This document shows, in pieces, positions 26,126 through 53,715 of a stretch of DNA of 64,000 nt. Both the position numbers and the translations under genes were made by a program. Under the pieces are notes generated by a model that was given only the letters and a program-made list of their open reading frames with translations, did not search any database and was not told the DNA's origin. The stretch covers positions 1,073 through 65,072 of the forward strand of contig JAQBRA010000002.1 in NCBI GenBank assembly GCA_028286685.1, written 5' to 3'. Every line of letters starts with the position of its first letter. The stretch's first letter is position 1. This DNA is from Candidatus Adlerbacteria bacterium. Its GTDB lineage: Bacteria; Patescibacteriota; Minisyncoccia; Phycocordibacterales; SBAW01.

Positions 26126-26464
26126 GTGGTACGCATCCCCGCAGTATTTAAGAAGATCCAGGCCGAGATACTCGGCCCCAGCTACGACCTTTCGGTCGTT
26201 TTTTTGGTTGAGAAGGAGATGCGAAAAGCGATGAAGTACCGGTACGAGAAAATAGCCGGAAAGAAGACGTCCAACGTGCTGTCGTTCCCGCTTTCCAAAA
26301 CGTCCGGCGAAATCCTCATCTGCCCCGATGCCGCAAAGCCCTACACCCTTGCCTACCTTTTTATCCACGGATGCCTGCACCTTAAAGGGTCCAAGCATAG
26401 TGATACAATGGAGCGTGAAGAGAACCGGATTTTAAAAAAATTCGGCCTTCGCGCGCATGAATAA
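26126..26464 (+). CDS. ybeY: rRNA maturation endoribonuclease YbeY
   Basis: 112 aa with a GTG start and the Zn motif HGCLHLKGSKH (HxxxHxxGxxH). Confidence 0.85.
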   Translation: MVRIPAVFKKIQAEILGPSYDLSVVFLVEKEMRKAMKYRYEKIAGKKTSNVLSFPLSKTSGEILICPDAAKPYTLAYLFIHGCLHLKGSKHSDTMEREENRILKKFGLRAHE

Positions 26465-27635: not shown

Positions 27636-27641
27636 GCAAGC

Positions 27642-27662
27642 GCCGCCATAGGGCGGCTTTTT
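27642..27662 (+). terminator. Terminator after ftsA
   Basis: GCCGCC-ATAG-GGCGGC followed by TTTTT. Confidence 0.55.
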
Positions 27663-27762
27663 CGATACAAAAGCCAGGTTTGTCAAAATTGCCAAAGGTT
27701 TTAGGAACAAGTAGAGTTGTAGGGCTACACGGCACGCACACCTAAACAACCAACCAATCCTT

Positions 27763-32111: not shown

Positions 32112-32522
32112 TTATCGTATGGTTTTGACGAGCGTAAAGTTGCCGCGGAAACCAGGGTTTCCCGAAGCGCCTTCGTCGACATCGCCGACGCGCACGACAA
32201 CCTGCCCGGGCTCCTCAAAGACGCCTATCTCGTGGCCGCCGCCAGCAAACCAGCAGATGACCTTGGATTTCTCATACTCCAAAAAGTCGGAGTCCATCTC
32301 GGCGCAGCTGCCCTCGTGCGTACCGATGTCGAAGCTCTCGCCGCCTGCCATGAGGGTTACTTGCGTCTGCGGTATGCCATCCTTTTCGCCCCGCTCGGAA
32401 AACTCCCACGAGTAGACAAGGGGCCCGGCCGGGGCTTTTGTGTCGTGCCTAAAGACCGTAAACGCCACGCCGCCCAAAATGATGATGATAAGGCCGAGAA
32501 TTCCCCATGATTTAGGTGTCAT
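32112..32522 (-). CDS. Membrane-anchored hypothetical protein
   Basis: 136 aa with an N-terminal TM (WGILGLIIIILGGVAFTVF) and a soluble domain. No family recognised. Confidence 0.5.
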   Translation of the reverse strand: MTPKSWGILGLIIIILGGVAFTVFRHDTKAPAGPLVYSWEFSERGEKDGIPQTQVTLMAGGESFDIGTHEGSCAEMDSDFLEYEKSKVICWFAGGGHEIGVFEEPGQVVVRVGDVDEGASGNPGFRGNFTLVKTIR

Positions 32523-32551
32523 GCGAATAAGTATAACGTCCTCGCCAGCTC

Positions 32552-33304
32552 TTACAAACGCTCTATAGTGGTCGCCCAGATAACGCCGTCTATGTCGTAG
32601 GGAGTGTTTGCCTCGGCCGGATGCAGCGGGCCCTCAACCTTGACCTTGGCGCCGGTTGGGAAATCGACCGGCGATGCGGACATAAGCGAGGTGTTTATGG
32701 CGTAGTGGCCGTCGCTCTGGTCTATTGCGATGCCGAAGGCGCATTCCATAGTATGTGGGCCGTCACCCTTGTGCGGCAGGCACTCCCAGACGCCCGTAAC
32801 GCTTACCCGCTCAGGCGGTGGCTCTGTGGCGCCCTTTTGCCAGCTGGAGATAAGCCATTGCTCCGCCCGTTTTTCGAGCGCAATAGTTACCGGATACGTG
32901 GCGGCATAGCCTTCTGGATCATCATTCGTTACCTCAACTACCGTGCCCTGCGCGGTCGCGGTCGCATCCTTGTAGCTAACCTCGGCAATCTCGACGCGGT
33001 CGGGCCACGGACTCGAGGTTTGGCGGCCAGGGGCGCTCTTAGGGTCAGCCTGCCATGCCGCAAAAAGTTCCGGGGTTATATAGAGGCCGTACTGCGCGCC
33101 CACTTGCGCCGCAGCATCCGGAGCCAGGAGCGAGACATTCTTCATGTTCGAGCCCAGGCCCTCGATAGCGGCCCGAATAGCTGAGTCCTCGGTATTGGAG
33201 ACCGAACCCTGATCCGGAGCCTTCTGCCCGCCGAACAGCACCAGCATCAGCGCGACCCCAAGTGCCACCGCCGCCCCTATCCCCATGATTGCCTCTTTTT
33301 TCAT
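32552..33304 (-). CDS. Membrane-anchored hypothetical protein
   Basis: The start is set at MKKEAIMGIGAAVALGVALMLVLF (ATG 33304). The protein has an extracytoplasmic domain and no recognised family. Confidence 0.5.
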   Translation of the reverse strand: MKKEAIMGIGAAVALGVALMLVLFGGQKAPDQGSVSNTEDSAIRAAIEGLGSNMKNVSLLAPDAAAQVGAQYGLYITPELFAAWQADPKSAPGRQTSSPWPDRVEIAEVSYKDATATAQGTVVEVTNDDPEGYAATYPVTIALEKRAEQWLISSWQKGATEPPPERVSVTGVWECLPHKGDGPHTMECAFGIAIDQSDGHYAINTSLMSASPVDFPTGAKVKVEGPLHPAEANTPYDIDGVIWATTIERL

Positions 33305-33524
33305 AAACACATTGTAACGCATTTGCGAGTGGCTACTTATTAAGCCGGGCCTAGCCAGAATTTTTCTTCTTGCTCATAATCGTGCCTACGATGCCGGCAA
33401 TGACCGCCAAGAGCCCGAGCAGCTGCGCTCCGCGGTTTAGGAGAAGCCTAGATAGTCTTATGTAGACTTTTTCTGCGTGTCATAGTGCCAGTATGCCAGC
33501 TCCCTACAAATAGGCGCGGAAAAA

Positions 33525-35423
33525 TTACGGCAACGACTGGCGGCCCTGTGTGGCCCCTACGACGGGTATCCCCTTCTGTTTTATATAATTGACTATGCTC
33601 TGGAACATGCTGGGCGTTACGGAGTAGAGACTGTTGTTAGTGTCAATATCGTGGAACGCGAGTATGAGCCACGTACGCGTCTGCGCCGCAGTATCGACCC
33701 ACTGCTTGACCTGGTCGAGCGTCACGGTATTACGCAGCTCCTGGTACTCGAGCTGGTACGGGTCGGAGTTGGTGGACACGTAGCCGCTTATGGTCGCGGC
33801 CGCACTGGTAAAGCCTGCGTCTCGCACGACCTGGAGCGTCGTCGCGTCGTACTCGCCGTACGGGTACGCGAACGAAAGCACCGACCCCACGCTCCACCCC
33901 AAAAGATCCTGCCGCGACCCGGCTATCTCGTCCTGCTCCTGCTGGGGTGTGAGCGCGGTCAAGTGCGCATGCGTGCGGGTGTGCGCGCCTATCTCGTGCC
34001 CGCGAGCCGCCAGGTCCTGCACTTGCGCCTTGGACACAAAGCCCGGAAAGCCATTGTCGGCCGTCTCGCGCGAGATAATATAGAACATCCCCTTGAATCC
34101 GGCCGTATCGAGCATGGGCGCGGCCGCGGAGTACTGGCTGCTTAAGCCGTCATCGAAGCGGAAGGTCACCGCCCCGGTCAAGAATATGCCGCTCGAGGCC
34201 GAAGAGGCGGTTATGGCTACGTTGTCGAGCGATAGCGTACCGTTGCCTTTGATAAGGTGGAAGACTCTCGTCTTGGCCGCAGCAGATGGCACCGAAAGAG
34301 CGGCCGTGGCAGTAGTCCACGACGAGGCGGCAGGCAAGGTCTTGAGGTCCGCGTAGAAAAAGCTGCCGTCGGCGCGCTGGAATTCTGCGGTCAAGATTGT
34401 CGGCACGTTCGCCATATAGCTGTCCGAGTAGGTATACGCGCCCGGTGAGAGCGCCACCTGCTCGTGCACCCACTTGGCGTCGCCGCTTGCGTAGCCCGAC
34501 ATAGCTATCTGCGCGCCATTGCCGCTCTGTCCCGAGACGGGATATGTAAACACGCGCGTATTGCTGCCATAGCCGCCGCGGGCCCAACGCGCTGGGAGCC
34601 CCCCGGAGCCCGCGGTCTCGAAGTCGCCGTTTAGCACCGAGTTCTGGGCGGACGGAGGCGGCGGGGACGGCGGCATGACCTCGCGCAGGACGTAGTCGTC
34701 GGTATCGAGCGTGCCGTTGCTTTTAATAAGATGGAAGATCGTCGCTGACACCGTGCCCGCGGGCGCCGCAAATTGCACCGTGATGTTCGTGTATGCGGCG
34801 CTCGCGGGCAAGGTGGCAACGTCCTTATAAACGAACGTGCCGCCCGAGAGCGCAAAGCGGATAGTGACTATGCTTGCGGCCGTGCTTTTGTAGGTGTCCG
34901 AAAATTCGTAGGTCTTGCCGCCTGTTACGGGCATGTCGTCCGGGTACCACTTGGCGTCGCCGCTTGCGTAATTGGATAGTGCGACCTCAACGCCACTGCC
35001 ACTTTTGCCCGGCACGGGGTACGTAAGCGCTCGCGTGCTGCTGCCGTAGCCGCCCTTGTGCCAGCTGGCTGGCAGGCCGGGCTGACCGGCAGTCTCAAGC
35101 CCGGGATTAGGCACCAGATTGGGGCCAAAGCTGGAAGCTGCCGGAGCGAGCGCGGCGGGAGCCGCCGCGGGCGCTGTCTTGTTGCCGCTCGGCAGCGTAG
35201 GACTCGGTATAGGCGCCTTTCTGTCTATGTTGGGCTCTTGCGCGGTTTCGCGGTGCGGTATGAGTATGGGCCCGGCGCGCTGCAGGTTAGGGTCCGCGGC
35301 GCTTTCTTGGTTTGGGACCGGAGCGCCGAAGGAGACCCCGAGCGGCGCCACCAGCGCCACCATGACAATAAGCGTCGCTATTTTCTTTCGCCCGCGCCAC
35401 CAATTGTTTACATTGTCTTTCAT
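33525..35423 (-). CDS. Secreted polysaccharide deacetylase (CE4/NodB domain) with two N-terminal carbohydrate-binding-like repeats
   Basis: 632 aa with a signal/TM. There are two about 150-aa repeats (GLPASWHKGGYGSSTR.../GLPARWARGGYGSNTR...). The C-terminal NodB motifs are FRFDDG, GHEIGAHTRTH and AYPYGEYD. Confidence 0.8.
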   Translation of the reverse strand: MKDNVNNWWRGRKKIATLIVMVALVAPLGVSFGAPVPNQESAADPNLQRAGPILIPHRETAQEPNIDRKAPIPSPTLPSGNKTAPAAAPAALAPAASSFGPNLVPNPGLETAGQPGLPASWHKGGYGSSTRALTYPVPGKSGSGVEVALSNYASGDAKWYPDDMPVTGGKTYEFSDTYKSTAASIVTIRFALSGGTFVYKDVATLPASAAYTNITVQFAAPAGTVSATIFHLIKSNGTLDTDDYVLREVMPPSPPPPSAQNSVLNGDFETAGSGGLPARWARGGYGSNTRVFTYPVSGQSGNGAQIAMSGYASGDAKWVHEQVALSPGAYTYSDSYMANVPTILTAEFQRADGSFFYADLKTLPAASSWTTATAALSVPSAAAKTRVFHLIKGNGTLSLDNVAITASSASSGIFLTGAVTFRFDDGLSSQYSAAAPMLDTAGFKGMFYIISRETADNGFPGFVSKAQVQDLAARGHEIGAHTRTHAHLTALTPQQEQDEIAGSRQDLLGWSVGSVLSFAYPYGEYDATTLQVVRDAGFTSAAATISGYVSTNSDPYQLEYQELRNTVTLDQVKQWVDTAAQTRTWLILAFHDIDTNNSLYSVTPSMFQSIVNYIKQKGIPVVGATQGRQSLP

Positions 35424-35686
35424 ACCTACATATCGTCTTTAACATACGGACGCGATTTCGCGTAAGTGTAGTGCGTATGCCGTGATAGGACTGTGAACAA
35501 AGGCTATGGACAAAGCACGCATGCCGTAGCACAGCGCAATAATCTGAAGATGAAATATGGCGCAACCGTGCGATATACGATTCTTCATTAAGTTTCATCG
35601 TCCTTTCACTATTGACCATATTCACCGAGTCTTAAAGAATATGCAGGTGCGAAGCTTACCCGTTATGAATTCCAAGATTGCAACCC

Positions 35687-37438
35687 ATGCGTATTACAAA
35701 AGCCGCGCTCGTCGCGACTCTATCCCTCAGTGTGCTACTGCCGACGTTCGCGTCGGCGCAGACAGCTTCGGTCTATTACCCGTTCAACAGTGCGGGCACG
35801 CTCTATCAAGCGAGCTCTGCCGAAAAAAGCCCCAGTTCCTACTTCTGGCTTAAAAGCGGCGCCAAACTCGTCATCAAAGATGGTGTGGGCAACACGATAC
35901 AAGGCGCCCTTCCCGCCGACGATCCGTGGAGAAAGACCTATGCATCGACCCTCGCCACGGCCTCCGACAATGGCGCGCACCCGCAGAACACCTTCCTCCT
36001 GCTAACCCGGGCCGCATACAAGAACACCTCCGCACAGATATATGTGCGCCGTACGGCCGACAACCTTACAAACCCGGCCAATCGACAGCCCTACAACGGC
36101 GAGTCGATCCTCGCGCGGTACCAGAGTGACGGAACCTTCTACTATGCCGGCATCCGAGCCGATGGCACGGTCGTCATCAAAAAGAAATTGAACGGCGCAT
36201 ACCAAACGCTCTCGCAGAAGAAGGTGCTCTCTGGCACGTATAACGCAAGTTCAAATCCTAACCTCATCCCTAAAAACACCTGGATAGGACTTAAGCTCAC
36301 GATTGAAGACACCAGCGCAGGCCCGCAACTTACCCTCTTTACCGATGTGAGTAAGACCGGCGCGTGGAGCAAGGCGCTCAGCGTTATCGACGACAAGGCG
36401 AAATTCGGCAGCCCTATCACGGGCGCGGGTGTCGTCGGCATCCAAACCGATTACGCGGACGCGCAGTTCGACGACTTCCTCTTCTCGGAGATAGCGGCAA
36501 CATCGACCCCAGCCCCGACGCCAGCACCCACACCTACCCCTACTCCCACCCCCACTCCGACCCCGACGCCAGCACCCACACCTACGCCGACGCCTACCCC
36601 CGCACAGGGATATGACGCTACCGTGCTCGGCGGCAAGCCAGTCATGTACCTTGCAATGAACTCGTTCAGCACGGGCAAAGAGTCGGACCTAAGCGGCCAT
36701 AACAACGCCGGCGCCTACAAAGGCGGCACGCCCACGACGGCCGCGCTCCCTAACGGGGAGACGGCAGCCAACTTCAACGGCTCGAGCCAGTACCTGACCG
36801 TGCCGTCGAACGCCTCGCTCTCGATCCCGACTACCGGCAAATTGACGTGGGAGGCGTGGATCCGGCCCGATACGTTCCAGTTTTCCAACGCCAGCAGCGA
36901 TGGCTATGTCGACTGGATGGGCAAATGCGCAAACTACTCGCCGACGTGCGAGTGGGAGGCGCGCATCTACGGCGCATCGACCGCACAAGGCCGCCCCAAC
37001 CGACTCTCAGCCTACGCGTTCAACCCATCGGCCGGTCTCGGGAGCGCGGCCGACTGGCAGCCGCAGGCGGGCCTCCTGCAGGCGGGCAAGTGGCTCCACG
37101 TGGTCGCAGAATACGACCTATCGACGACGCCATCTGGGTGCTCCTCCGCTTACCCCGGATCGATCAACATCTGGGTCAACGGCATCAAGCAGAACTTCGC
37201 CGCACATGCACCGACCGGATGCATGAGCCAGTACAAAATATCCCCCAAAGCCGGCAGTTCGCCGCTTACTATCGGGACGATGGCGCTCGACACCTGGTTT
37301 AAGGGTGCGGTCGGCAAGGTCGCCGTGTACAACCGACTGCTGACGCAGACTGAAATCAATGCGCACTTCACTGCAATGACAGGCGCCAATCCTTCCGGCT
37401 CGTGCGCATCCACCTGTACCGCCGCGCTCGTGCAGTAA
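35687..37438 (+). CDS. Secreted two-domain ConA/LamG-like lectin-fold protein with Pro-Thr linker
   Basis: Signal peptide MRITKAALVATLSLSVLLPTFASA. The N-domain is homologous to the 41769..42605 product. A linker TPAPTPAPTPTPTPTPTPTPTPAPTPTPTPTP follows. The C-terminal LamG-like domain has WEAWIRPD, LHVVAEYD and VAVYNRLLTQTEI. Confidence 0.65.
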   Translation: MRITKAALVATLSLSVLLPTFASAQTASVYYPFNSAGTLYQASSAEKSPSSYFWLKSGAKLVIKDGVGNTIQGALPADDPWRKTYASTLATASDNGAHPQNTFLLLTRAAYKNTSAQIYVRRTADNLTNPANRQPYNGESILARYQSDGTFYYAGIRADGTVVIKKKLNGAYQTLSQKKVLSGTYNASSNPNLIPKNTWIGLKLTIEDTSAGPQLTLFTDVSKTGAWSKALSVIDDKAKFGSPITGAGVVGIQTDYADAQFDDFLFSEIAATSTPAPTPAPTPTPTPTPTPTPTPAPTPTPTPTPAQGYDATVLGGKPVMYLAMNSFSTGKESDLSGHNNAGAYKGGTPTTAALPNGETAANFNGSSQYLTVPSNASLSIPTTGKLTWEAWIRPDTFQFSNASSDGYVDWMGKCANYSPTCEWEARIYGASTAQGRPNRLSAYAFNPSAGLGSAADWQPQAGLLQAGKWLHVVAEYDLSTTPSGCSSAYPGSINIWVNGIKQNFAAHAPTGCMSQYKISPKAGSSPLTIGTMALDTWFKGAVGKVAVYNRLLTQTEINAHFTAMTGANPSGSCASTCTAALVQ

Positions 37439-37537
37439 GGTTACCGACCTAAAAATCGACTCATCCCCCGTTCAGCGCAGTGCAACAGGCCATGGTTCAC
37501 TATCAGTTCAGCGTACTACGGTACAGTACGCCGTGAT

Positions 37538-38923
37538 ATGGAAGCTCAATCTGCGACAGAGAGAATAGCGGGAAAGGACGACAAGAAAGGACCGAAATCC
37601 CGCATCGACAAGCCGCGGAACGGGCAGGAAGATGAGCACCCACCCCCTCGCCTACTGAACGTAGCAGTGGTCGGCGTCGGCTATGTCGGCCTACCGCTCG
37701 CGCTCCTGGCCCGCGCAAAGGGCTACCGGGTGCGGGGCATCGACATCGACGAGCGCAAGCGCGCAGCTGTGCGTGACGCAGCCGTGGCCGACCTGGACGC
37801 CTCCTTTACGGAGGCGTTGCGCGTGCAGCCCTTAGAGGTCTCAGGCCATTTCGGCCCGGTGCGCAGCGCGAACATTGTCATCGTATGCGTGCCGACCCCG
37901 GTCGACGACGAGCATAACCCGGACCTCTCCTTGATCGAGGGAGCTGCACGCCGCGTCGGGCGCAACCTGCACCAAGGCGCACTCGTCATACTGGAGTCGA
38001 CCGTGCATCCCGGCACCTGCGACGAGATCTTTATCCCCATTTTAGAGAAAGCGTCGGGCCTGCGCGCCGGAAAGGATTTCGGCGTAGCCCATTGCCCGGA
38101 ACGCATCAACCCGGGAGACAAGGTTTGGACGATAGAACGCATCCCCCGCGTCGTGGGCGCCACGACCGAAAAGGCGCTTAGCTTGGCGGCCAGCTTCTAC
38201 CGCTCGATACTCAGCGCGTCGGTCCATGAGATGGAGAGCATTAAAGAGGCCGAGGCGGTCAAGGTGGTTGAGAATTCCTTTAGGGACATTAACATTGCCT
38301 TCGTCAACGAGCTCGCGATGTCCTTCAGCAAGCTTGGCATCGACGTCAGCCACGTGCTGAGCGGCGCCGCGACGAAGCCTTTCGGCTTCCTGCTCCATCA
38401 GCCGGGGTGCGGTGTTGGAGGGCATTGCATACCGGTCGACCCGTACTACCTTATACGGTACGCCAAGCGCAACGGATTTTCGCACCGCTTCCTGTCGCTC
38501 GCACGCACGATAAACGAAGGCATGCCCGCATATACAGTCTCGCTCGTCGAGACAGGCCTGCACTCGCTCGGACGCACGTTGAGCAACTCGAGCGTGGCGC
38601 TCTTGGGCCTCTCTTATAAAGCCAACGTAAGCGACCTGCGCGAGAGCCCGTCGTTCGAGATTAAGGAACTGCTTGAGAGTAAGGGGGCACGGGTGCGCAC
38701 CTTCGACGAGCATGCGCCCGACCGATCGACGACGCACTCGCTCGCCGAGGCGCTCGACGGGGCCGATGCCGCAATAGTCGCGACCGCCCATGCGGAGTTC
38801 GCTGGACTGCCCCCCTCGGTGTTCGCCTCGCGCGGCGTGCGCGTGGTGGTCGACGGACGCAACTGCCTCCAAAAGGAGCAGTACCTGCGGGCGGGCATCC
38901 TTTACCGCGGCATAGGCCGCTAA
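37538..38923 (+). CDS. Nucleotide-sugar 6-dehydrogenase (UDP-N-acetyl-hexosamine dehydrogenase-like, TviB/WecC/Cap5O type)
   Basis: VAVVGVGYVGLPLALL (Rossmann), VIVCVPTP and GCGVGGHCIPVDPYYL (catalytic Cys region of the UDP-GlcNAc/ManNAc dehydrogenase type). The N-terminal 40 aa are uncertain. Confidence 0.8.
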   Translation: MEAQSATERIAGKDDKKGPKSRIDKPRNGQEDEHPPPRLLNVAVVGVGYVGLPLALLARAKGYRVRGIDIDERKRAAVRDAAVADLDASFTEALRVQPLEVSGHFGPVRSANIVIVCVPTPVDDEHNPDLSLIEGAARRVGRNLHQGALVILESTVHPGTCDEIFIPILEKASGLRAGKDFGVAHCPERINPGDKVWTIERIPRVVGATTEKALSLAASFYRSILSASVHEMESIKEAEAVKVVENSFRDINIAFVNELAMSFSKLGIDVSHVLSGAATKPFGFLLHQPGCGVGGHCIPVDPYYLIRYAKRNGFSHRFLSLARTINEGMPAYTVSLVETGLHSLGRTLSNSSVALLGLSYKANVSDLRESPSFEIKELLESKGARVRTFDEHAPDRSTTHSLAEALDGADAAIVATAHAEFAGLPPSVFASRGVRVVVDGRNCLQKEQYLRAGILYRGIGR

Positions 38924-38927
38924 GGCA

Positions 38928-40211
38928 ATGGAACCACTACCCACGCAGCGACGGCTCGCATTCCTGCAGGACGCAGGGCCCCTGTTTATGTTCTTCCTCG
39001 TGGTTTACTTCATCATCATTCTGAAGACCGCGACTGTCTCCTCCATCGTCGACCACTGGTTCTTTGGCTTATACAGTCTGCTCATCACGACCTACATCCT
39101 CTCACGCTTCCTGCTGTCGCATTTCCATGTAGTGCCCCGCGCGGACCCCGCCTACCGCCCGACCGTCACTTTCGTGGTGCCGGCCAAGAACGAGGAGGAC
39201 AACATACGCGAGACTATGCGCAAGTTCAGCGAGGTCGACTACCCGCCCGAACTTATCGAGGTGATAGCTATCAACGACGGCTCCACCGACCGGACGCTTG
39301 AGGAGATGCGCGCAGCTGCGCTTGAGATACGTGCGCGCATCGCGCGCGTCGAGGTTATCCACTGGGGCCACAATCGCGGCAAGCGCCACGGCATGGCGGA
39401 AGGAGTACAGCGCGCGCGGCACGAAATCATCATCTTCATCGACTCCGACAGCTTCATCGAGCCCGACTGCGTCACCCACCTGGTAAAGTACTTCGCCGAC
39501 CCGGCAGTCGGCGCGGTCTCGGGGCATACCGACGTCCACAACGACCAGGCAAACTTCCTCACCCGCATGCAGGCCATACGCTACTACCTGGCGTTCCGAG
39601 TCTACAAGGCGGCGGAGTCGGTATTCGGCGCGGTAACCTGCTGCCCAGGCTGCTGCAGTGCATACAAGCGCGCCTACCTTATACCCATACTCGACGAGTG
39701 GCTTACCCAGCGCTTTTTGGGCGGCCAGTGCACCTTTGGCGACGACCGCTCGCTCACCAACTTTATCCTGCGGAAATTCGAGGCGGTCTATGCGCCCGAG
39801 GCGCGAGCGCGCACCGTCGTGCCCGAGAAGTTCGCCACGTACGTGCGCCAGCAACAGCGCTGGAAAAAGTCGTGGATACGCGAGACTTTTATCGCATGCG
39901 GATTTATGTGGCGCAAGCATCCGCTCGCGGCGATATCCTTCTATACGTACGTTTTTTTGGCGTTCGCCTCTCCTATCGTGTTTGCCCGCGCGATGATCTG
40001 GCATCCGCTTACGACCGCAAGCGTGCCGCTTGTGTACCTCGCGGGACTCTTCCTCATGCTCATGCTGCACGGGCTCTACTACCGCCTGTACATGGGCCCG
40101 CGAGCGTGGCTCACGGGGATAATGAGCTTTTGGTTTAATTCCGTGGTGCTTATGTGGCAGCTCCCTTGGGCACTCATCACGCTCAAGGACTCCCGCTGGG
40201 GCACCCGTTAA
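38928..40211 (+). CDS. Processive family-2 glycosyltransferase, hyaluronan-synthase/NodC/chitin-synthase-like
   Basis: 427 aa with INDGSTD, NRGKRHG, IDSDS, CCPGCCSAYKR, GDDRSLTN and QQQRWKKSWIRE (Q-x-x-RW). There are TM helices at both ends. Confidence 0.8.
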   Translation: MEPLPTQRRLAFLQDAGPLFMFFLVVYFIIILKTATVSSIVDHWFFGLYSLLITTYILSRFLLSHFHVVPRADPAYRPTVTFVVPAKNEEDNIRETMRKFSEVDYPPELIEVIAINDGSTDRTLEEMRAAALEIRARIARVEVIHWGHNRGKRHGMAEGVQRARHEIIIFIDSDSFIEPDCVTHLVKYFADPAVGAVSGHTDVHNDQANFLTRMQAIRYYLAFRVYKAAESVFGAVTCCPGCCSAYKRAYLIPILDEWLTQRFLGGQCTFGDDRSLTNFILRKFEAVYAPEARARTVVPEKFATYVRQQQRWKKSWIRETFIACGFMWRKHPLAAISFYTYVFLAFASPIVFARAMIWHPLTTASVPLVYLAGLFLMLMLHGLYYRLYMGPRAWLTGIMSFWFNSVVLMWQLPWALITLKDSRWGTR

Positions 40212-40216
40212 CTCCC

Positions 40217-41767
40217 ATGAGATTCGCACGATTTTCACTGCAAAGGCTCGGCCCGATAGTTTTTGCGGGAGTACTGCTCATGGTCGCGACTGTCTCGACG
40301 TTCACCTGGAAGAGCGCCCACTACGGGCAGACGCCGTTCTTCAACTGGCTGGTCCTCATGGTCGAAGAACGCACGGTAGCGGCGGCGTTCAATGGGTGGC
40401 ACTCCCTCGGCGATCTGTCAGCGCTCCTGGCGCCAAAAAAGACACAGGCGCAGCTCGCGAGAGCTGTCCCCGTGCTGGCCTATCACCGCCTGACGCTCAC
40501 CGAGGAGGCCGGCCAGCTTCCGGTGGCGCGCTTCATGGACCAGATGGAGACGCTGCACCGCGCCGGCTGGCACACCGCCACACTCGAGGAGTACCGGCAG
40601 TTCGTGCAGGGCACGCGCACGCTCCCCGAGCGCACCTTTCTCCTGACGTTCGACGACGGGGCGCAGCAGAGCTACTACCCCGTCGACCCCATACTCAAGA
40701 CGCTCGGTTACAGCGCGGTACAGTACGTCATCGTATCCGCCAGCGAAACGCCCAAAAGCATCTACTACCTATCGCCCGAGCAGATAAGCGCCATGCTCTC
40801 AACCGGGCGCTGGGAGATAGGCTCGCACTCCTTTGACGCACACCACACCTACCCCACCGACCCCGCAGGCGGGACCGGCATCTTTTATACCGACAAACTC
40901 TGGATGCCCACGCAAGGGCGCCTGGAGACCGACGCGGAGTTCCTCGCGCGCGTGCACGACGATCTCTTGCGCGCGCGCCAGGCGCTCGAAGCGCGCTACG
41001 GCGTAACAGTCGACACGTTTGCCGTCCCCTTTGGCGGAGAGACCGGACACCGCGCGGCGGACAACTACGCCGGTGGCAGCGATATAACGCTCGCGGAAGC
41101 GCGCAGGCTCTACGACTTCGTGTGGCTGCAGACCGACCGGCGCGACTTTACCTTCAATTACCCCAGCTACCCCTCTATACTCGGCAGGCGCATACACGTC
41201 GACTACGACTGGGAAGGCGAGACGCTCAAGACATTTATGGAGGGTGGAGTCCCCAAGGCGCTGCCATATAGGGATAACTTTGCCGTCGACAGCGGCTGGC
41301 GGCACTCCTGGGGCAGCGTCCAGCCCATCGGGTCGCTCGAGCTCGGTGCGGGCCCGCAGGATACCAGCGCGGGGAGCGTGCTGGACGGGAGTCTCTTGTG
41401 GAGCGCGTACCAAGCGGAGGCGACGGTCAATTGGGAACACGGGTACGCGGTGATCATGGGCGCGGTGCGCGACGCCCACACATACCGGTCGTGCTCGTTC
41501 TCTCCCGGCGAGGTCGAAATACACGACACCAGCGGCACCAGCATCATCCCGCTTGCCAAGCGCGCGGAGTCTGAGATCCAATACGGACAGGGGGTCAAGC
41601 TGGGTATCCGCGTGGAAGATGCCGCTATCTCCTGCTTGTACAACGGCCATGTCCTGCTCTCCGCGCCGACTGGCCGCAACGAGGGCGGCGTCGGCATACA
41701 GACTTGGGCGCCTGAACCAGGCACGGCGAGCCTCCTGGTGACCAATTTTCTCGCAGACCCGCTGTAA
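40217..41767 (+). CDS. Membrane-anchored polysaccharide deacetylase (CE4) with extra C-terminal domain
   Basis: The start is MRFARFSL... with a TM. NodB motifs are LLTFDDGAQQSY and EIGSHSFDAHH. The ORF track start at 40154 would overlap the GT2 gene. Confidence 0.75.
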   Translation: MRFARFSLQRLGPIVFAGVLLMVATVSTFTWKSAHYGQTPFFNWLVLMVEERTVAAAFNGWHSLGDLSALLAPKKTQAQLARAVPVLAYHRLTLTEEAGQLPVARFMDQMETLHRAGWHTATLEEYRQFVQGTRTLPERTFLLTFDDGAQQSYYPVDPILKTLGYSAVQYVIVSASETPKSIYYLSPEQISAMLSTGRWEIGSHSFDAHHTYPTDPAGGTGIFYTDKLWMPTQGRLETDAEFLARVHDDLLRARQALEARYGVTVDTFAVPFGGETGHRAADNYAGGSDITLAEARRLYDFVWLQTDRRDFTFNYPSYPSILGRRIHVDYDWEGETLKTFMEGGVPKALPYRDNFAVDSGWRHSWGSVQPIGSLELGAGPQDTSAGSVLDGSLLWSAYQAEATVNWEHGYAVIMGAVRDAHTYRSCSFSPGEVEIHDTSGTSIIPLAKRAESEIQYGQGVKLGIRVEDAAISCLYNGHVLLSAPTGRNEGGVGIQTWAPEPGTASLLVTNFLADPL

Positions 41768-41768
41768 C

Positions 41769-42605
41769 ATGCTTATGCAGTTCTATGGCGTACTATCGGC
41801 GATGATCCTTTTAGCCGCAGTGGCGCTCCTTTTTGGCGCGGATCGAGTCGGCACGCCCGTGGCTACGGTCGCCTCGCCGTATGTCTACTTGTTCGGAGGG
41901 AACGGCGCACTGGAAGAGGCCAGGAATACGTCCAGGACCGCGAGCCCCTACTGGTGGCTAAACTCCGGCGGCAGAATCGAGATTGCCGGCTCCCTGGGCA
42001 GCACGATGCAGGGCGACGCGCCGCAAGGTGACCGATGGCGCACGGCCTACGCCGCCTCCAACCCGACCGATACCGACCAGGGTCTCCATCCGCAGAACAT
42101 CTTCCGTCTCGTGACGCGCAGCCTGTGGGGAGACGCGAGCCAGGAGGTCGAGCTGCGCCTGGTTGCCGACCAGAAGAGCCAAAGCCCTAATCGCAACGCG
42201 TCGAACGGGCTCTTTCTTATGAGCCGGTACGTGGACGGCGATACGCTTTACTACGCGGGCCTGCGCGTCGACGGCATGGCCGTGATAAAGAAAAAATACA
42301 ACGGCGCGTATTATACGCTTGCCGAGGCGCCGGCCTTCCCCGGCGCCTACGACCGCGACAAAAACCCCAATCTCCTGCCGCACGGGGAATGGCTCTCGAT
42401 ACGGTCCGAGACCGCGCATACTGACGGCGGCATCGCCATACGCCTATACCTGAAGCGGGAGTCGGACACCAATTGGCTGAAGCTCCTCGAGGCGATTGAC
42501 CGCGGCCAGAGCGGGACGCCCGCCATCAGGGGCCGCGGGCGCGGCGGCATCCGCACCGACTTTATGGACGTGCAGTTCCGCTCGTACCGGATGGAAAATT
42601 TGTGA
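41769..42605 (+). CDS. Secreted ConA-like (DUF1080-like) domain protein, paralog of the 35687 N-domain
   Basis: 278 aa with a TM/signal and PYWWLNSGG...HPQNIFRLVTR...YYAGLRVDGMAVIKKKYNGAYYTL...GIRTDFMDVQFRSYRM. Confidence 0.6.
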   Translation: MLMQFYGVLSAMILLAAVALLFGADRVGTPVATVASPYVYLFGGNGALEEARNTSRTASPYWWLNSGGRIEIAGSLGSTMQGDAPQGDRWRTAYAASNPTDTDQGLHPQNIFRLVTRSLWGDASQEVELRLVADQKSQSPNRNASNGLFLMSRYVDGDTLYYAGLRVDGMAVIKKKYNGAYYTLAEAPAFPGAYDRDKNPNLLPHGEWLSIRSETAHTDGGIAIRLYLKRESDTNWLKLLEAIDRGQSGTPAIRGRGRGGIRTDFMDVQFRSYRMENL

Positions 42606-42762: not shown

Positions 42763-43200
42763 TTACTCCTTCTTCGGGTATGTTTTGTGTATTTCAAGAT
42801 ACTTCTCTTCCGTTGACGGCAAACCAGCGCAAGTAAAAGCATCTGTGATACTTATCCGGCTCTCAAACAGAAAGCCGAGTTCTGCCATTTCAAACAAGGT
42901 TTGTAGGTCGATGCCCTTGCCGCTCCATTCCTCCGTCTTAATGTAGACAGTCACGTCTTCCTTGTGATAGTAATACTCGATTTCAGTGACTTTCGCCTCT
43001 GAGAAACGAGCAATTGAGTTGAAGGCAATTTCCTTCCCTTCAGCAGGAATAGCATTCACTGGCCAAGGAAGATAGAAAAGCGATGGGTGCGACGGGGAGT
43101 GCAGCCGCACTGCAGTCGCATACTCTTCAGGTAGATCCCAGTCATCCGCAGCAGTAGGAATTTCTACTAAGGCGACGGCTGGCGGTGCCAAGTAGTTCAT
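42763..43200 (-). CDS. Hypothetical protein (AT-richer gene next to tRNA pair)
   Basis: 145-aa acidic protein with no family recognised. A long hairpin at about 42716..42760 lies downstream. Confidence 0.45.
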   Translation of the reverse strand: MNYLAPPAVALVEIPTAADDWDLPEEYATAVRLHSPSHPSLFYLPWPVNAIPAEGKEIAFNSIARFSEAKVTEIEYYYHKEDVTVYIKTEEWSGKGIDLQTLFEMAELGFLFESRISITDAFTCAGLPSTEEKYLEIHKTYPKKE

Positions 43201-43291
43201 ACGACCCTCCTCTTAGATGTTTTTCATCGACGAAAAACTATCGATGTATCCGCAGGCAAAATAACACACTATTTTATTTAAATCAACTCTG

Positions 43292-43363
43292 TGACCCCAC
43301 CGGGAATCGAACCCGGATTAACGGCTTGAAAAGCCGGCGTCCTAACCGTTAGACGATGGGGCC
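43292..43363 (-). tRNA. tRNA-Glu(TTC)
   Basis: Reverse complement GGCCCCA-TC-GTCT-AACGGTTA-GGAC-G-CCGGC-TTTTCAA-GCCGT-TAAT-CCGGG-TTCGATT-CCCGG-TGGGGTC-A. Confidence 0.85.
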
Positions 43364-43393
43364 GCATGCCCGGGGCTTTAACCCTGGGCTTGG

Positions 43394-43480
43394 CGGAGGA
43401 GGTGAGATTCGAACTCACGGTGGAGTTTCCCCCACGCCACATTTCGAGTGTGGTGCCTTCGACCACTCAGCCACTCCTCC
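43394..43480 (-). tRNA. tRNA-Ser(CGA)
   Basis: Reverse complement starts GGAGGAG-TG-GCTGAGTGGTCGAAGGC. The anticodon loop is CTCGAAA, with a long variable arm, T arm GTGAG-TTCGAAT-CTCAC and discriminator G. Confidence 0.85.
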
Positions 43481-43551
43481 GTACCACGCAAAATAACACT
43501 TTTTTAACCTCTTTGCTATACTGGCTGCATTAGCCGCTTACCTGCATATAT

Positions 43552-43974
43552 ATGAACCGAGTAGTACATTTTGAGATACAGGCAGACGATCTGGACCGTG
43601 CGCAGAAGTTTTATGAGACAGCATTCGGCTGGACCTTCCAGCAGATGGGTCCCGAATACGGCAATTACCGAGTTATTACGACCGGCCCTGGCCCGGACGA
43701 AATGGCCGAAGGGGTCAAGATGGAAGACCTGGGCATTAACGGCGGAATGATGAAGCGCAACGCTCCGCTGCCCGCGGACGGCATGTCTCCCAACGCATTT
43801 ACCAGTGTTATGGGCGTGGGCGATATTGAGTCGATAATGCCTAAGATAGAGGCGGCAGGAGGCAAACCCCAGACCGACCTTATGGATGTGCCGAATGTCG
43901 GAAAGATCCGCTACTACAAGGATACCGAGGGCAATCTTTTTGGGATCATACAGCCGACAATGCGGGCGGCATAA
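43552..43974 (+). CDS. VOC (glyoxalase/bleomycin-resistance fold) family protein
   Basis: 140 aa with MNRVVHFEIQADDLDRAQKFYETAFGW and YYKDTEGNLFGI. Confidence 0.75.
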   Translation: MNRVVHFEIQADDLDRAQKFYETAFGWTFQQMGPEYGNYRVITTGPGPDEMAEGVKMEDLGINGGMMKRNAPLPADGMSPNAFTSVMGVGDIESIMPKIEAAGGKPQTDLMDVPNVGKIRYYKDTEGNLFGIIQPTMRAA

Positions 43975-44015
43975 TAATTGAAAAAAGCTCCAAAATGCGC
44001 TAAGGTTTTGGAGAT

Positions 44016-44088
44016 GCGCGGTTAGCTCAGTTGGTAGAGCATCCCCTTGACGTGGGGAGGGTCGCAGGTTCAAGTCCTGCACCGCGCA
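44016..44088 (+). tRNA. tRNA-Val(GAC)
   Basis: GCGCGGT-TA-GCTC-AGTTGGTA-GAGC-A-TCCCC-TTGACGT-GGGGA-GGGTC-GCAGG-TTCAAGT-CCTGC-ACCGCGC-A. Confidence 0.9.
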
Positions 44089-44091
44089 CAA

Positions 44092-50930: not shown

Positions 50931-51006
50931 TGGTGCTTGGGGCCGGGCTCGAACCGGCGACATCTTCCTCTTCAGGGAAGCGCTCTACCAACTGAGCTAC
51001 CCAAGC
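50931..51006 (-). tRNA. tRNA-Phe(GAA), CCA encoded
   Basis: Reverse complement GCTTGGG-TA-GCTC-AGTTGGTA-GAGC-G-CTTCC-CTGAAGA-GGAAG-ATGTC-GCCGG-TTCGAGC-CCGGC-CCCAAGC-A-CCA. Confidence 0.9.
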
Positions 51007-51049
51007 AATAAGACCAGCTTATCAAAAAGCGGGACTTTAGGCCACTGGC

Positions 51050-51334: not shown

Positions 51335-51357
51335 GCCCTAAATTGTATCACGCACAG

Positions 51358-52245: not shown

Positions 52246-52283
52246 AAAGCCAGTATAGCAGGTGCCTACCTGAAGATTTTATG

Positions 52284-52355: not shown

Positions 52356-52371
52356 TTTCTGTTTTTACGAC

Positions 52372-52393: not shown

Positions 52394-52420
52394 GAGTATG
52401 CTACAGATTCGCCTTTTGGG

Positions 52421-53712: not shown

Positions 53713-53715
53713 ACT

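What the first reader, a model, noticed from the sequence alone, without database searches (positions are those of the whole stretch)
33525..42605. Exopolysaccharide locus: HasA/NodC-like processive GT2, hexosamine-type nucleotide-sugar dehydrogenase, two CE4 deacetylases and lectin-fold secreted proteins
The gene order is CE4(-) | ConA/LamG protein, dehydrogenase, GT2, CE4, ConA-like protein (+). The GT2 carries the hyaluronan/chitin-synthase hallmarks (GDDRSLTN, QQQRWKKSW, NRGKRHG). The dehydrogenase has the GGHCIPVDPYY motif of UDP-GlcNAc/ManNAc 6-dehydrogenases rather than the UDP-glucose type. Together these predict a membrane-extruded HexNAc / HexNAc-uronic acid polymer that is partially de-N-acetylated, analogous to PNAG (PgaC/PgaB) or hyaluronan (HasA/HasB). 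That is unexpected investment for a streamlined genome.
Basis: partly seen in the sequence, partly recalled or inferred. Interest (0 to 1): 0.5.

Follow-up and report, generated by a model that had tools for sequence, protein, structure and literature searches.

The report
Surface polysaccharide operon of tiny bacteria
This stretch of a very small (candidate-phyla-radiation) bacterial genome carries a compact gene set, conserved across that whole lineage, that most likely spins out and trims an acidic, chitin/hyaluronan-like sugar coat on the cell surface; the set is real and coherent, but its product has never been studied.

Summary
In detail: all six genes, their order and every quoted motif are present. 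The GT2 models with high confidence as a membrane-embedded hyaluronan-synthase-like enzyme. The dehydrogenase lies in the HexNAc (TviB/WecC) clade, not the UDP-glucose clade. Both CE4 proteins look catalytically intact. The two "lectin-fold" proteins share a ConA-like domain with no Pfam family.

New points:
- The real unit is a tightly packed four-gene operon: dehydrogenase, GT2, PgaB-type CE4, lectin-like protein. It is syntenic in most Paceibacteria/Kaiserbacteria loci, including a complete 859-kb genome, so it is a lineage trait rather than an oddity of this genome.
- The upstream CE4 and the lectin/LamG protein are variable accessories.
- The GT2s form their own clade (100/100 bootstraps) beside HAS and NodC. 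Non-CPR relatives carry PilZ and, in one locus scanned, TPR.
- In a related CPR-like locus the CE4 and the lectin domain are fused to a heparinase II/III-type lyase. This supports a uronic-acid polymer and a binding role for the domain.
- Fungi and chloroviruses carry the same unexplained triad (UDP-GlcNAc dehydrogenase, chitin/HA-like synthase, deacetylase).

The product chemistry is inferred, not shown. I rate it a new variant of a known kind, of moderate interest.

The parts
37538..38923 (+). Gene C: NAD-dependent nucleotide-sugar 6-dehydrogenase of the HexNAc (TviB/WbpA/WecC/Cap5O) clade. It is the predicted source of a UDP-HexNAc-uronic acid, most simply UDP-GlcNAcA.
   Evidence: Three UDPG_MGDP_dh domains, and TIGR03026 at 389 bits against a cut-off of 190. 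Best PDB match is 4r16, a UDP-ManNAcA dehydrogenase, at 1.6e-83; UGDHs reach no better than 4e-41. In an NJ tree it groups with TviB-type enzymes and the Paenibacillus dehydrogenase. Identities: 39.8% to TviB-type, 32% to WecC, 23-28% to UGDH. It sits directly upstream of the GT2 in 39/51 CPR loci.
38928..40211 (+). Gene D: membrane-embedded GT2 synthase of the HAS/NodC/chitin-synthase superfamily, in a distinct subfamily. It is the predicted polymerase and translocase.
   Evidence: Pfam Glycos_transf_2 and Chitin_synth_2. AF2 pLDDT 89; top Foldseek hits are XlHAS1 and CvHAS. Motifs DSDS, GDDR, QQQRW and a C-terminal WGTR are invariant in 47 homologues. The CPR + PilZ-GT2 + Paenibacillus clade is recovered in 100/100 bootstraps; its position relative to HAS and NodC is unresolved.
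40217..41767 (+). Gene E: membrane-anchored, extracytoplasmic PgaB/IcaB-type CE4 de-N-acetylase (domain about 40472-41053), followed by a conserved C-terminal domain of unknown family (41144-41764).
   Evidence: PF01522 at 4e-14; TIGR03938 at 98.6 bits; best PDB match BpsB/PgaB at 1e-18. The equivalents of PgaB H55, D114, D115, H184 and H189 are present and at least 95% conserved across 41 CPR homologues. One N-terminal hydrophobic segment. Present downstream of the GT2 in 48/49 CPR loci. The C-terminal domain has no Pfam hit and no profile similarity to F.
41769..42605 (+). Gene F: N-terminally anchored ConA-like (CBM66 / L-type-lectin-like) beta-sandwich protein of an undescribed family. It is the predicted polymer-binding or polymer-retaining module.
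35678..37438 (+). Gene B (accessory): secreted two-lectin protein. It has a signal peptide, an F-like domain (about 35756-36493), a Pro/Thr linker (about 36500-36610) and a LamG/Laminin_G_3 domain (about 36776-37360).
   Evidence: Laminin_G_3 at 2.5e-12. The N-terminal half is 38% identical to F. Hydrophobic N-terminus with ...FASA-Q. The LamG fusion was found in only one other locus, L052, but extra F paralogues occur in 12/49 loci.
33525..35423 (-). Gene A (accessory, divergently transcribed): N-terminally anchored protein with two tandem repeats of about 150 aa (about 34209-35138) and a canonical NodB-type CE4 domain (about 33537-34172).
   Evidence: PF01522 at 2e-24; HfsH model 103 bits, cut-off 400. 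The repeats are 46% identical, E = 8e-47, with no Pfam or PDB relatives. The CE4 domain matches fungal and bacterial chitin/xylan deacetylases. The motifs RFDDG, HTRTH, YPYG and AFHD are visible in the translation. A-like genes occur in 10/40 CPR loci.

Best explanation
C-D-E-F is a synthase-dependent cell-surface polysaccharide operon, stripped down for a single-membrane CPR bacterium. The source MAG is labelled Candidatus Adlerbacteria; close relatives are Kaiserbacteria/Paceibacteria.

Proposed mechanism. "Shown" below means shown by computation on the sequence only; no biochemistry has been done.

1. The cytoplasmic dehydrogenase C oxidises a UDP-N-acetylhexosamine at C6. UDP-GlcNAc is the simplest candidate, because no 2-epimerase lies in the cassette or the window. 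The clade assignment is shown; the substrate is inferred.
2. The GT2 D is a HAS-like integral membrane enzyme. It polymerises the uronic acid donor, probably together with UDP-GlcNAc, and threads the chain through its own transmembrane channel. The fold and catalytic motifs are shown; processivity, linkage and composition are inferred.
3. Outside the membrane, the anchored PgaB-type CE4 E removes some N-acetyl groups. This would give a polymer carrying both carboxylate and amine groups. Intact catalytic residues and an extracytoplasmic location are shown from sequence; activity is inferred.
4. The anchored lectin-like protein F binds the polymer and holds or organises it at the surface. The fold and its use as a modular appendage on glycan-active enzymes are shown; the ligand is inferred.

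Genes A (a second CE4 with two repeat modules) and B (F-domain plus LamG) are lineage-variable secreted accessories that further modify or cross-link the coat. A plausible biological role is a capsule or adhesive matrix for these episymbiotic cells. That role is speculative.
For: Gene content and motifs.

Operon structure: gaps of 4, 5 and 1 nt between C/D, D/E and E/F.

Synteny: present in L001 and in the complete genome CP066682.1, and across 80 GTDB-species loci. Dehydrogenase adjacent in 39/51, CE4 in 48/49, F in 44/49, all four in 29/40.

GT2: HAS-like model and HAS top hits. It shares the HAS-type GDDR, where NodC has GEDR and PgaC has TED. It shares the IFH1 Arg equivalent to XlHAS1 R287, where NodC has Glu, and it shares a C-terminal WGTR. 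The roles of these motifs are taken from PMC11750622.

Dehydrogenase: HexNAc-clade placement, and no WecB in the window.

CE4 E: catalytic residues conserved.

Location: A, B, E and F each have one N-terminal hydrophobic segment and no others.

F: lectin/CBM fold.

Rosetta-stone locus L092: a dehydrogenase 54% identical to C, then a GT2, then one protein that fuses a heparinase II/III lyase, a CE4 and an F-domain 47% identical to F. Lyases of that family act only on uronic-acid polymers (established knowledge).

Substrate supply: MurJ in the window implies a lipid II pathway and hence a UDP-GlcNAc pool (inference).
Against: - No biochemical data exist for any member.
- 12 of 51 CPR loci lack the C-type dehydrogenase within 7 kb, although at least two of them carry a short divergent one. 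The non-CPR relatives also lack it. The uronic acid may therefore not be obligatory.
- The HAS-like motifs (GDDR and the others) are shared by those dehydrogenase-less relatives too, so they do not prove a uronic acid donor.
- The GT2 of L092 belongs to a different lineage (32% identity, ATDR instead of GDDR). The lyase argument therefore transfers through the dehydrogenase and the F-domain, not through the synthase.
- The dehydrogenase reaches no equivalog cut-off: TviB 230/592, WecC 219/459, archaeal 295/750. My tree is a small NJ tree.
Confidence: 0.6

Rival explanations
1. The product is a plain chitin/chitosan-like beta-1,4-GlcNAc homopolymer: GT2 plus CE4, with F as a chitin/chitosan-binding lectin. 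The dehydrogenase would feed another glycan, or only a minor or terminal residue.
For: - The GT2-CE4 pair is the most conserved core (48/49), whereas the dehydrogenase is missing next to 12/51 CPR GT2s and in the non-CPR relatives.
- The Paenibacillus version ends with a GH18-family gene.
- There is a Pfam Chitin_synth_2 hit, and the NodC model is the best NCBIfam match.
- F-domains are also fused to GH5 and GH6 beta-1,4-glycanases.
- Chlorovirus chitin synthases that sit beside a UDP-GlcNAc dehydrogenase and a deacetylase are reported to make chitin (PMC5122149).
Against: - There is a 4-nt gap between the dehydrogenase and the GT2, and they are adjacent in 39/51 loci and again in Paenibacillus. 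No other GT in the cassette could consume the acid sugar.
- A heparinase-type lyase is fused to CE4 and the F-domain in L092.
- The residue before the catalytic Asp is HAS-type (GDDR), not the GEDR seen in NodC.
Confidence: 0.22
2. It makes genuine hyaluronan (GlcA-GlcNAc), with C acting as a UDP-glucose dehydrogenase like HasB.
For: JGI pipelines name many homologues 'hyaluronan synthase'. HAS structures are the best fold matches. The HAS motif set is present.
Against: - C is only 23-28% identical to UGDHs, against about 40% to TviB-type enzymes. It has GGHC..DP instead of GGYC/GGSC..KD, and its UGDH models and structures score far lower.
- The GT2 does not fall inside the HAS clade.
- Known has operons have no CE4 (established knowledge; the pXO1 hasA neighbourhood shows galU and a UGDH only).
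Confidence: 0.05
3. It is a NodC/NodB-like system that makes short, partly deacetylated chito-oligosaccharide signals rather than a polymer.
For: The NodC equivalog model aligns end to end (residues 48-427 on model positions 13-394) and is the best NCBIfam hit. The protein has the same length and topology class as NodC and is 31% identical to it. A deacetylase lies next to it.
Against: - The score of 197 bits is far below the NodC cut-off of 550.
- It has GDDR, Arg218 and WGTR where NodC has GEDR, Glu and WLSR.
- The new family groups with NodC in only 3/100 bootstraps.
- There is no NodA or NodIJ.
- The CE4 is PgaB-type and, like F and B, carries an N-terminal anchor or signal peptide, so the substrate must be outside the cell.
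Confidence: 0.05
4. It is a PNAG (beta-1,6-GlcNAc) system like PgaCB/IcaAB.
For: E is most similar to PgaB/BpsB/IcaB and keeps all five PgaB catalytic residues.
Against: The GT2 is only 26% identical to PgaC (79 bits), against 31% (about 145 bits) to NodC and HasA. The PgaC_IcaA model scores 127 against a cut-off of 422. PgaC is the outgroup in the tree. There is no small PgaD/IcaD-like gene between D and E, which lie 5 nt apart. E lacks the GH153 C-terminal domain.
Confidence: 0.03

Closest known systems
Class I hyaluronan synthase operons (streptococcal / B. anthracis pXO1 hasA-hasB; Chlorella-virus and vertebrate HAS structures)
   Same: - A single membrane-embedded GT2 that would both polymerise and export.
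- The same fold (Foldseek E = 4e-22).
- The same motif set (DxD, GDDR, QxxRW, WGTR at the C-terminal gating loop, IFH1 Arg/Tyr/Phe).
- A sugar 6-dehydrogenase encoded alongside.
- A size (427 aa) like the bacterial class I enzymes.
   Different: - About 30% identity, and not inside the HAS clade.
- The partner dehydrogenase is HexNAc-type, not UGDH.
- There are two CE4 deacetylases and lectin-like proteins, which has operons lack.
- The product is therefore probably not hyaluronan.
Fungal / chlorovirus UNGD - chitin(hyaluronan)-synthase-like (CHS8/CV class) - chitin deacetylase gene cluster (PMC4059230, PMC5122149, PMC7053769)
   Same: The same three activities are clustered: a UDP-GlcNAc 6-dehydrogenase, a HAS/CHS-like GT2 and a CE4 deacetylase. 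The product is likewise unknown. In Trichoderma and Fusarium the cluster is linked to parasitic interaction.
   Different: - It is eukaryotic or viral. Orthology was not established: the nearest viral GT2s I found are 24-41% identical (the highest values over partial alignments), with a dehydrogenase at 23-35% in a few loci.
- It has no F-domain protein.
- The fungal enzymes have a QRKRW motif and a different architecture.
PNAG systems PgaABCD / IcaADBC
   Same: A synthase-dependent HexNAc polymer is partly de-N-acetylated outside the membrane by a CE4 with the permuted PgaB motif order. In monoderm IcaB systems deacetylation retains the polymer on the cell (established knowledge).
   Different: The synthase is not PgaC/IcaA-like. 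There is no PgaD/IcaD, no porin, no c-di-GMP site and no GH153 domain. A dehydrogenase is present.
Rhizobial NodC/NodB
   Same: The GT2 is of the same length and is colinear with NodC, and a deacetylase is adjacent.
   Different: It fails the equivalog cut-off and differs at diagnostic residues. The accessory proteins are extracytoplasmic. There is no NodA or NodIJ.
Pneumococcal type 3 capsule cassette (cps3D UDP-Glc dehydrogenase followed by the cps3S processive GT2 synthase); recalled from the literature, sequences not compared here
   Same: The gene order is dehydrogenase then a single HAS/NodC-related synthase, making an acidic capsule in a monoderm without Wzx/Wzy or an ABC exporter.
   Different: The dehydrogenase is a UGDH and the polymer is Glc-GlcA. 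There is no deacetylase or lectin.
Uncharacterised PilZ-GT2 loci of Paenibacillus, Verrucomicrobiota/Kiritimatiellia, Aminicenantes and Syntrophorhabdus (found here)
   Same: The GT2s belong to the same subfamily (39-46% identity; one clade, 100/100) and are followed by a CE4-like gene. Paenibacillus also has the HexNAc-type dehydrogenase directly upstream.
   Different: - They carry an N-terminal PilZ domain (confirmed in L004 and L072). L068 also has a giant TPR protein and a GHL10 gene; Paenibacillus has a GH18 gene.
- They have no F-domain.
- The CPR version has lost the regulatory and outer-membrane parts and gained F.

Membership tests
Class I hyaluronan synthase (HAS) | GT-A domain fused to a transmembrane channel-forming helix bundle | tested here: met
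   AF2 model pLDDT 89, pTM 0.86. Top PDB matches are XlHAS1 and CvHAS over about 420-460 columns, TMq 0.67-0.75. Hydrophobic helices at 6-35, 44-64, 332-363 and 368-389.
Class I hyaluronan synthase (HAS) | Conserved motifs DxDT, GDDR, QxxRW and a WGT(S/R) gating loop (list from PMC11750622) | tested here: met
   DSDS (172-175), GDDR (271-274), QQQRW (308-312) and WGTR (424-427) are all invariant in 47 homologues. The GLYG motif was not examined.
Class I hyaluronan synthase (HAS) | Falls within the HAS clade in a phylogeny | tested here: inconclusive
   NJ tree on 206 core columns. The new family is monophyletic in 100/100 replicates. It is sister to the HAS sequences in 35/100 and to NodC in 3/100, and HAS itself is monophyletic in only 14/100. 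Identity is equal to HasA (30%) and NodC (31%).
Class I hyaluronan synthase (HAS) | Partner UDP-glucose 6-dehydrogenase (HasB) supplying UDP-GlcA | tested here: not met
   The adjacent dehydrogenase is HexNAc-clade, with 23-28% identity to UGDHs and a different active-site motif.
Class I hyaluronan synthase (HAS) | Product is alternating GlcA-beta1,3-GlcNAc-beta1,4 | not testable with these tools
   Needs biochemistry.
NodC chitooligosaccharide synthase | Reaches the NCBIfam equivalog TIGR04242 cut-off (550 bits) | tested here: not met
   196.8 bits.
NodC chitooligosaccharide synthase | nodA/nodB/nodIJ context and cytoplasmic processing | tested here: not met
   There is no acyltransferase or ABC exporter in the locus. 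The CE4 is PgaB-type with an N-terminal membrane anchor. Compare the true nod locus.
PgaC/IcaA PNAG synthase | Reaches the TIGR03937 cut-off (422 bits) | tested here: not met
   127 bits; 26% identity and 79 bits to PgaC.
PgaB/IcaB-type CE4 de-N-acetylase (gene E) | Catalytic/metal residues His55, Asp114, Asp115, His184 and His189 in PgaB order | tested here: met
   The equivalents YH, TFDDG and H-x4-H are present in E and at least 95% conserved in 41 CPR homologues. The residue numbering is recalled from the PgaB literature.
PgaB/IcaB-type CE4 de-N-acetylase (gene E) | Equivalog score (TIGR03938, 322 bits) and, for PgaB, a C-terminal GH153 domain | tested here: not met
   98.6 bits, and the match covers the N-terminal domain only. 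The C-terminal 207 aa have no Pfam match.
UDP-N-acetylhexosamine 6-dehydrogenases (TviB/WbpA, WecC/Cap5O) | Nucleotide-sugar dehydrogenase fold with the catalytic Cys in GGHC..DP, and closer to HexNAc enzymes than to UGDH or GMD | tested here: met
   TIGR03026 at 389 against 190. PDB order is 4r16 > Cap5O > CalS8 > 3g79 >> UGDH and GMD. Motif alignment and NJ tree.
UDP-N-acetylhexosamine 6-dehydrogenases (TviB/WbpA, WecC/Cap5O) | Assignable to one equivalog (UDP-GlcNAc versus UDP-ManNAc specificity) | tested here: inconclusive
   TviB 230/592, WecC 219/459, archaeal ManNAc dehydrogenase 295/750. Identity is about 40% to TviB-annotated and to generic enzymes. The NJ tree favours TviB-type. No WecB epimerase lies in the 64-kb window.
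Synthase-dependent EPS systems with c-di-GMP control (Bcs, Pga, Pel, Alg type) | c-di-GMP receptor (PilZ or equivalent) and a TPR/porin export module | tested here: not met
   D starts directly with its first TM helix, and there is no PilZ or TPR in the locus. The non-CPR relatives do have PilZ (L004, L072) and TPR (L068). Absence of a porin is expected for a monoderm.
Fungal/chlorovirus UNGD-CHS-CDA cluster | Clustered UDP-GlcNAc dehydrogenase, HAS/CHS-like GT2 and CE4 | tested here: met
   The same three activities are adjacent.
Fungal/chlorovirus UNGD-CHS-CDA cluster | Orthology of the component genes | tested here: inconclusive
   The viral scan found GT2s at only 24-41% identity, and few had a dehydrogenase (23-35%) or a CE4 nearby. 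The scan pattern required GDDR and may have missed CV-class enzymes.
CBM66 / L-type lectin (ConA-like) modules (gene F, B N-terminus) | ConA-like beta-sandwich fold | tested here: met
CBM66 / L-type lectin (ConA-like) modules (gene F, B N-terminus) | Sequence membership in a described family | tested here: not met
   No Pfam, NCBIfam or PDB sequence hit even at E = 10. All homologues are 'hypothetical protein'.

The most novel reading that the evidence does not exclude
The cassette makes a polysaccharide class not yet described in nature: a HAS-type alternating or mixed beta-linked GlcNAc / N-acetylglucosaminuronic acid chain, partly de-N-acetylated to a zwitterionic polymer. A new lectin family holds it on the cell. 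This coat would be the conserved surface matrix through which Paceibacteria/Kaiserbacteria attach to their hosts. The same chemistry would also explain the long-unexplained UNGD-CHS-CDA clusters of fungi and chloroviruses.
Probability: 0.3. Interest if true: 0.75.

Novelty: new variant of a known kind. Interest (0 to 1): 0.5.

Why it matters
CPR/Patescibacteria are a large share of bacterial diversity. They live attached to other cells, and they have very few genes to spare. Almost nothing is known about what covers their surface.

A four-gene cassette takes about 5 kb of an 859-kb genome and stays syntenic across many species. It is therefore likely to be central to their envelope or to host contact.

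It is also small enough to test directly by expressing two to four genes. If the product contains GlcNAcA, it would be a new natural glycosaminoglycan-like polymer made by a minimal HAS-type enzyme. That would interest glycobiology and biomaterials research. It would also give a function to a new carbohydrate-binding domain family, and to the analogous unexplained clusters in fungi and giant viruses.

Tried and rejected
- F versus the C-terminal domain of E. Profile-profile comparison gave probability 4.8%, so they are not demonstrably related.
- Pfam and PDB searches of A's repeats, E's C-terminal domain and B's N-terminal domain found nothing.
- Resolving HAS versus NodC affinity by phylogeny gave no answer with the references I could obtain. 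I had no streptococcal HasA, Cps3S or chitin synthase sequences.
- Assigning the dehydrogenase substrate from equivalog models and plasmid homologues was inconclusive.
- The promoter/terminator scan of the locus was no better than shuffled sequence.
- Literature searches for Patescibacteria/Kaiserbacteria plus hyaluronan or chitin synthase, or deacetylase, gave only a one-line mention of a 'hyaluronan synthase' annotation in soil Parcubacteria MAGs.
- A horizontally acquired island is unlikely. GC in the locus (0.60-0.63) matches the left flank, and the cassette is lineage-wide.
- The viral scan found no close relatives and no F-domain.
- F as a GH16 or PL7-type enzyme was considered. It is disfavoured because the top matches are non-catalytic lectins and CBMs, and because the domain occurs as an appendage on enzymes of several unrelated classes. 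It is not excluded.

Full report
**What is there.** The region holds six genes exactly as described.

- A (33525-35423, minus strand) has one N-terminal hydrophobic segment. It then has two repeats of about 150 aa that are 46% identical to each other and have no known relatives. It ends in a canonical NodB-type CE4 domain (PF01522, 2e-24).
- B (35678-37438) has a signal peptide, a domain of about 245 aa, a Pro/Thr linker and a Laminin_G_3 domain.
- C (37538-38923) is a three-domain nucleotide-sugar dehydrogenase (TIGR03026, 389 bits).
- D (38928-40211) is a GT2 with Chitin_synth_2 similarity.
- E is a CE4 with PgaB-like sequence plus a C-terminal domain of about 200 aa.
- F (41769-42605) matches no family.

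C, D, E and F are separated by 4, 5 and 1 nucleotides if E starts at ATG 40217, so they form an operon.

**Host and context.** The window has 11 scattered tRNA genes and a short RNase P RNA. It also carries housekeeping genes: gyrA, lepA, infB, murJ, tsaD, tRNA ligases and signal peptidase. Many ORFs have no family. F is 100% identical to a protein of a 'Candidatus Adlerbacteria' MAG. The closest GT2 homologues come from Kaiserbacteria/Paceibacterota. This is a CPR/Patescibacteria chromosome. GC in the locus matches the left flank.

**The conserved unit.** In Kaiserbacteria CG10 and in the complete 859-kb genome CP066682.1 the order is the same: dehydrogenase, GT2, CE4 (533-613 aa), then an unannotated protein of about 300 aa.

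A scan of one genome per GTDB species returned 80 loci. Among loci whose GT2 is at least 48% identical to D:

| Feature | Loci |
|---|---|
| C-type dehydrogenase directly upstream | 39/51 |
| E-type CE4 directly downstream | 48/49 |
| F after the CE4 | 44/49 |
| All four genes | 29/40 |
| A-like CE4 | 10/40 |
| Two or more F paralogues | 12/49 |

Some loci without the C-type dehydrogenase carry a short divergent dehydrogenase or a two-component regulator instead. The B-type LamG fusion was seen in only one other locus. A and B are therefore variable accessories.

**The synthase.** An AlphaFold model built on 47 homologues is confident (pLDDT 89). Its best solved-structure matches over the full length are Xenopus HAS1 and Chlorella-virus HAS (E about 1e-22 to 1e-20, TMq about 0.74). 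A mannosyltransferase, chitin synthases and BcsA follow.

It has two N-terminal and two to three C-terminal hydrophobic helices around the GT-A domain. The HAS motif list (PMC11750622) is matched by DSDS, GDDR, QQQRW and WGTR at the very C-terminus, and all are invariant in the family.

In a direct alignment, D shares three features with HasA, CvHAS and XlHAS1:
- the GDDR motif, where NodC has GEDR and PgaC has TED;
- the IFH1 Arg that contacts GlcA in XlHAS1, where NodC has Glu;
- WGTR, where NodC has WLSR.

Identity is nonetheless equal to NodC (31%) and pXO1 HasA (30%), and lower to PgaC (26%). No equivalog cut-off is reached: NodC 197/550, PgaC 127/422.

In a bootstrapped NJ tree the CPR enzymes form one clade in 100/100 replicates together with PilZ-bearing GT2s of Paenibacillus, Verrucomicrobiota, Aminicenantes and Syntrophorhabdus. 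The position of that clade relative to HAS and NodC is unresolved. D is therefore a member of a distinct, uncharacterised subfamily that works like a class I HAS.

**The dehydrogenase.** C scores 285 bits against the UDP-ManNAcA dehydrogenase 4r16 and 220 against Cap5O, but at most 145 against UDP-glucose dehydrogenases.

| Reference enzyme | Identity to C |
|---|---|
| TviB-type (PGAP equivalog) | 39.8% |
| Paenibacillus neighbour dehydrogenase | 39.5% |
| 4r16 | 37.7% |
| E. coli WecC | 32% |
| UGDHs | 23-28% |

C shares ...TK.F.F...PG.GVGGHCIPVDPYYL with the TviB type. UGDHs have GGYC/GGSC..KD at that position.

The precise substrate is not assignable. A small NJ tree groups C with the TviB type, and no WecB epimerase lies in the window. 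UDP-GlcNAc is therefore the parsimonious guess.

**The deacetylases.** E aligns with PgaB through the permuted CE4 motifs. The equivalents of PgaB His55, Asp114/115 and His184/189 are present and at least 95% conserved in 41 CPR homologues. E has a single N-terminal hydrophobic segment preceded by Arg residues, so the catalytic domain should face outward (inference from the positive-inside rule). A has the standard NodB motif order.

A profile search of 1.84 billion representatives found only 735 members. Many are tandem duplications. Several are appended to other modules: heparinase II/III lyase plus CE4, GH6 plus a peptidoglycan-binding domain, GH5, CE4 plus PKD, and PKD arrays. That is how a carbohydrate-binding module behaves.

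**A Rosetta-stone locus.** In L092 the genomic context is CPR-like. A dehydrogenase 54% identical to C is followed by a GT2 and then by one 1372-aa secreted protein. That protein fuses a heparinase II/III-type lyase, a CE4 and an F-domain 47% identical to F. Lyases of this family cleave only polymers with 4-linked uronic acids (established knowledge).

This is the best available evidence that the dehydrogenase product ends up in the polymer and that the F-domain recognises that polymer. The caveat is that the L092 GT2 belongs to another lineage (32% identity, ATDR instead of GDDR).

A second variant, L093, links a three-F-domain PKD protein, a CE4-PKD-F protein and a GT2.

**Relatives outside CPR.** Paenibacillus cellulositrophicus carries this arrangement on a megaplasmid:
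- a tandem CE4;
- a HexNAc-type dehydrogenase, which is an ORF missing from the PLSDB gene table;
- a PilZ-GT2 (39% identical to D);
- a CE4 that has lost most catalytic residues;
- a GH18.

The diderm relatives scanned have a PilZ-GT2 (PilZ confirmed in L072) followed by a CE4-like gene. The Verrucomicrobiota-type locus L068 also has a TPR protein of about 1500 aa and a GHL10 gene. The CPR cassette looks like the monoderm, regulator-less derivative of a broader c-di-GMP-controlled system, with F added.

**Comparison with the literature.** I found no study of this cassette in CPR. There is only a remark that a 'hyaluronan synthase' annotation was unique to soil Parcubacteria MAGs.

The same triad is documented in fungi (Wangiella, Fusarium, Trichoderma chs8-cda1) and in chloroviruses: a UDP-GlcNAc 6-dehydrogenase, a chitin/hyaluronan-synthase-like GT2 and a polysaccharide deacetylase. 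Its product is unknown, and it is induced during mycoparasitism. Viral GT2s that I could retrieve are only 24-41% identical to D and lack F. The resemblance is therefore one of logic, not shown orthology.

**Verdict.** I rate the general mechanism at about 0.8: an extruded, partly de-N-acetylated HexNAc-based surface polymer. With the uronic acid component included, the full statement rates about 0.6.

The main rival is a plain chitin/chitosan-like polymer (0.22). Genuine hyaluronan, Nod-factor-like oligomers and PNAG are each unlikely.

The system is a new variant of a known kind, the synthase-dependent exopolysaccharide. It has an undescribed GT2 subfamily, an undescribed lectin-like domain family and an unusual dehydrogenase pairing. 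It is not surprising in principle, but it is uncharacterised, lineage-wide in CPR bacteria and directly testable.

Noticed in passing
window 60652-60942 (-): The bacterial RNase P RNA match spans only 291 nt on a 367-position model. It barely passes the gathering score (104.8 against 100). This fits a reduced CPR-type RNase P RNA.
   Followed up: no
window 6762-8418, 43291-44089, 50931-54032, 61783-61868: Eleven tRNA genes are scattered singly or in pairs across 64 kb. Two of them (Glu, Ser) and a Val gene lie just right of the polysaccharide locus.
   Followed up: no
L004 (Paenibacillus cellulositrophicus plasmid NZ_CP045296.1) 4505-12171: A cultured Firmicute has a related cassette: a tandem CE4, a HexNAc-type dehydrogenase (ORF 6034-7278, absent from the PLSDB gene table), a PilZ-GT2, a CE4 with degenerate catalytic residues, and a GH18. 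It would be a tractable model organism for this GT2 subfamily.
   Followed up: partly
L092 6197-13119: A dehydrogenase and a GT2 are followed by a single 1372-aa protein that fuses a heparinase II/III lyase, a CE4 and the F-domain. The GT2 here is a different lineage (ATDR instead of GDDR, C-terminus WVRG).
   Followed up: partly
L093 2063-13157: A further architecture: a 1609-aa PKD-repeat protein with three F-domains, a 278-aa protein, a CE4-PKD-F protein of 1207 aa, and then a Chitin_synth-type GT2.
   Followed up: partly
L002 14114-15860; L021, L022, L032, L040 upstream of the GT2: OmpR-type response regulator and histidine kinase genes sit next to the cassette in several CPR genomes. This hints at two-component control. 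None was seen within about 12 kb in this window.
   Followed up: partly
window 41144-41764 (C-terminal domain of E): A domain of about 200 aa is conserved in CPR homologues, with invariant Trp, Cys and Gly positions. It has no Pfam match and no detectable profile similarity to F. The Paenibacillus counterpart gives a faint Laminin_G_2 hit (E = 0.07).
   Followed up: partly
window 34209-35138 (-): Two tandem repeats of about 150 aa lie in the CE4 protein A. They are 46% identical to each other and have no Pfam or PDB sequence relatives. They are presumably a new carbohydrate-binding module.
   Followed up: partly
window 36500-36610: A Pro/Thr-rich linker (TPAPTPAPTPTPTPTPTPTPTPAPTPTPTPTPA) in B produces spurious NCBIfam hits to S-layer, internalin and TonB models.
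   Followed up: no
window 26382-28829, 32112-33322, 42763-43200, 44972-46180: Several sizeable ORFs flanking the locus (317, 442, 136, 256, 145 and 402 aa) have no Pfam family. This is typical of CPR genomes.
   Followed up: no
window 56425-60512 (-): A MurJ lipid II flippase gene lies next to a 776-aa TPR protein. MurJ implies peptidoglycan synthesis and hence a UDP-GlcNAc pool.
   Followed up: no
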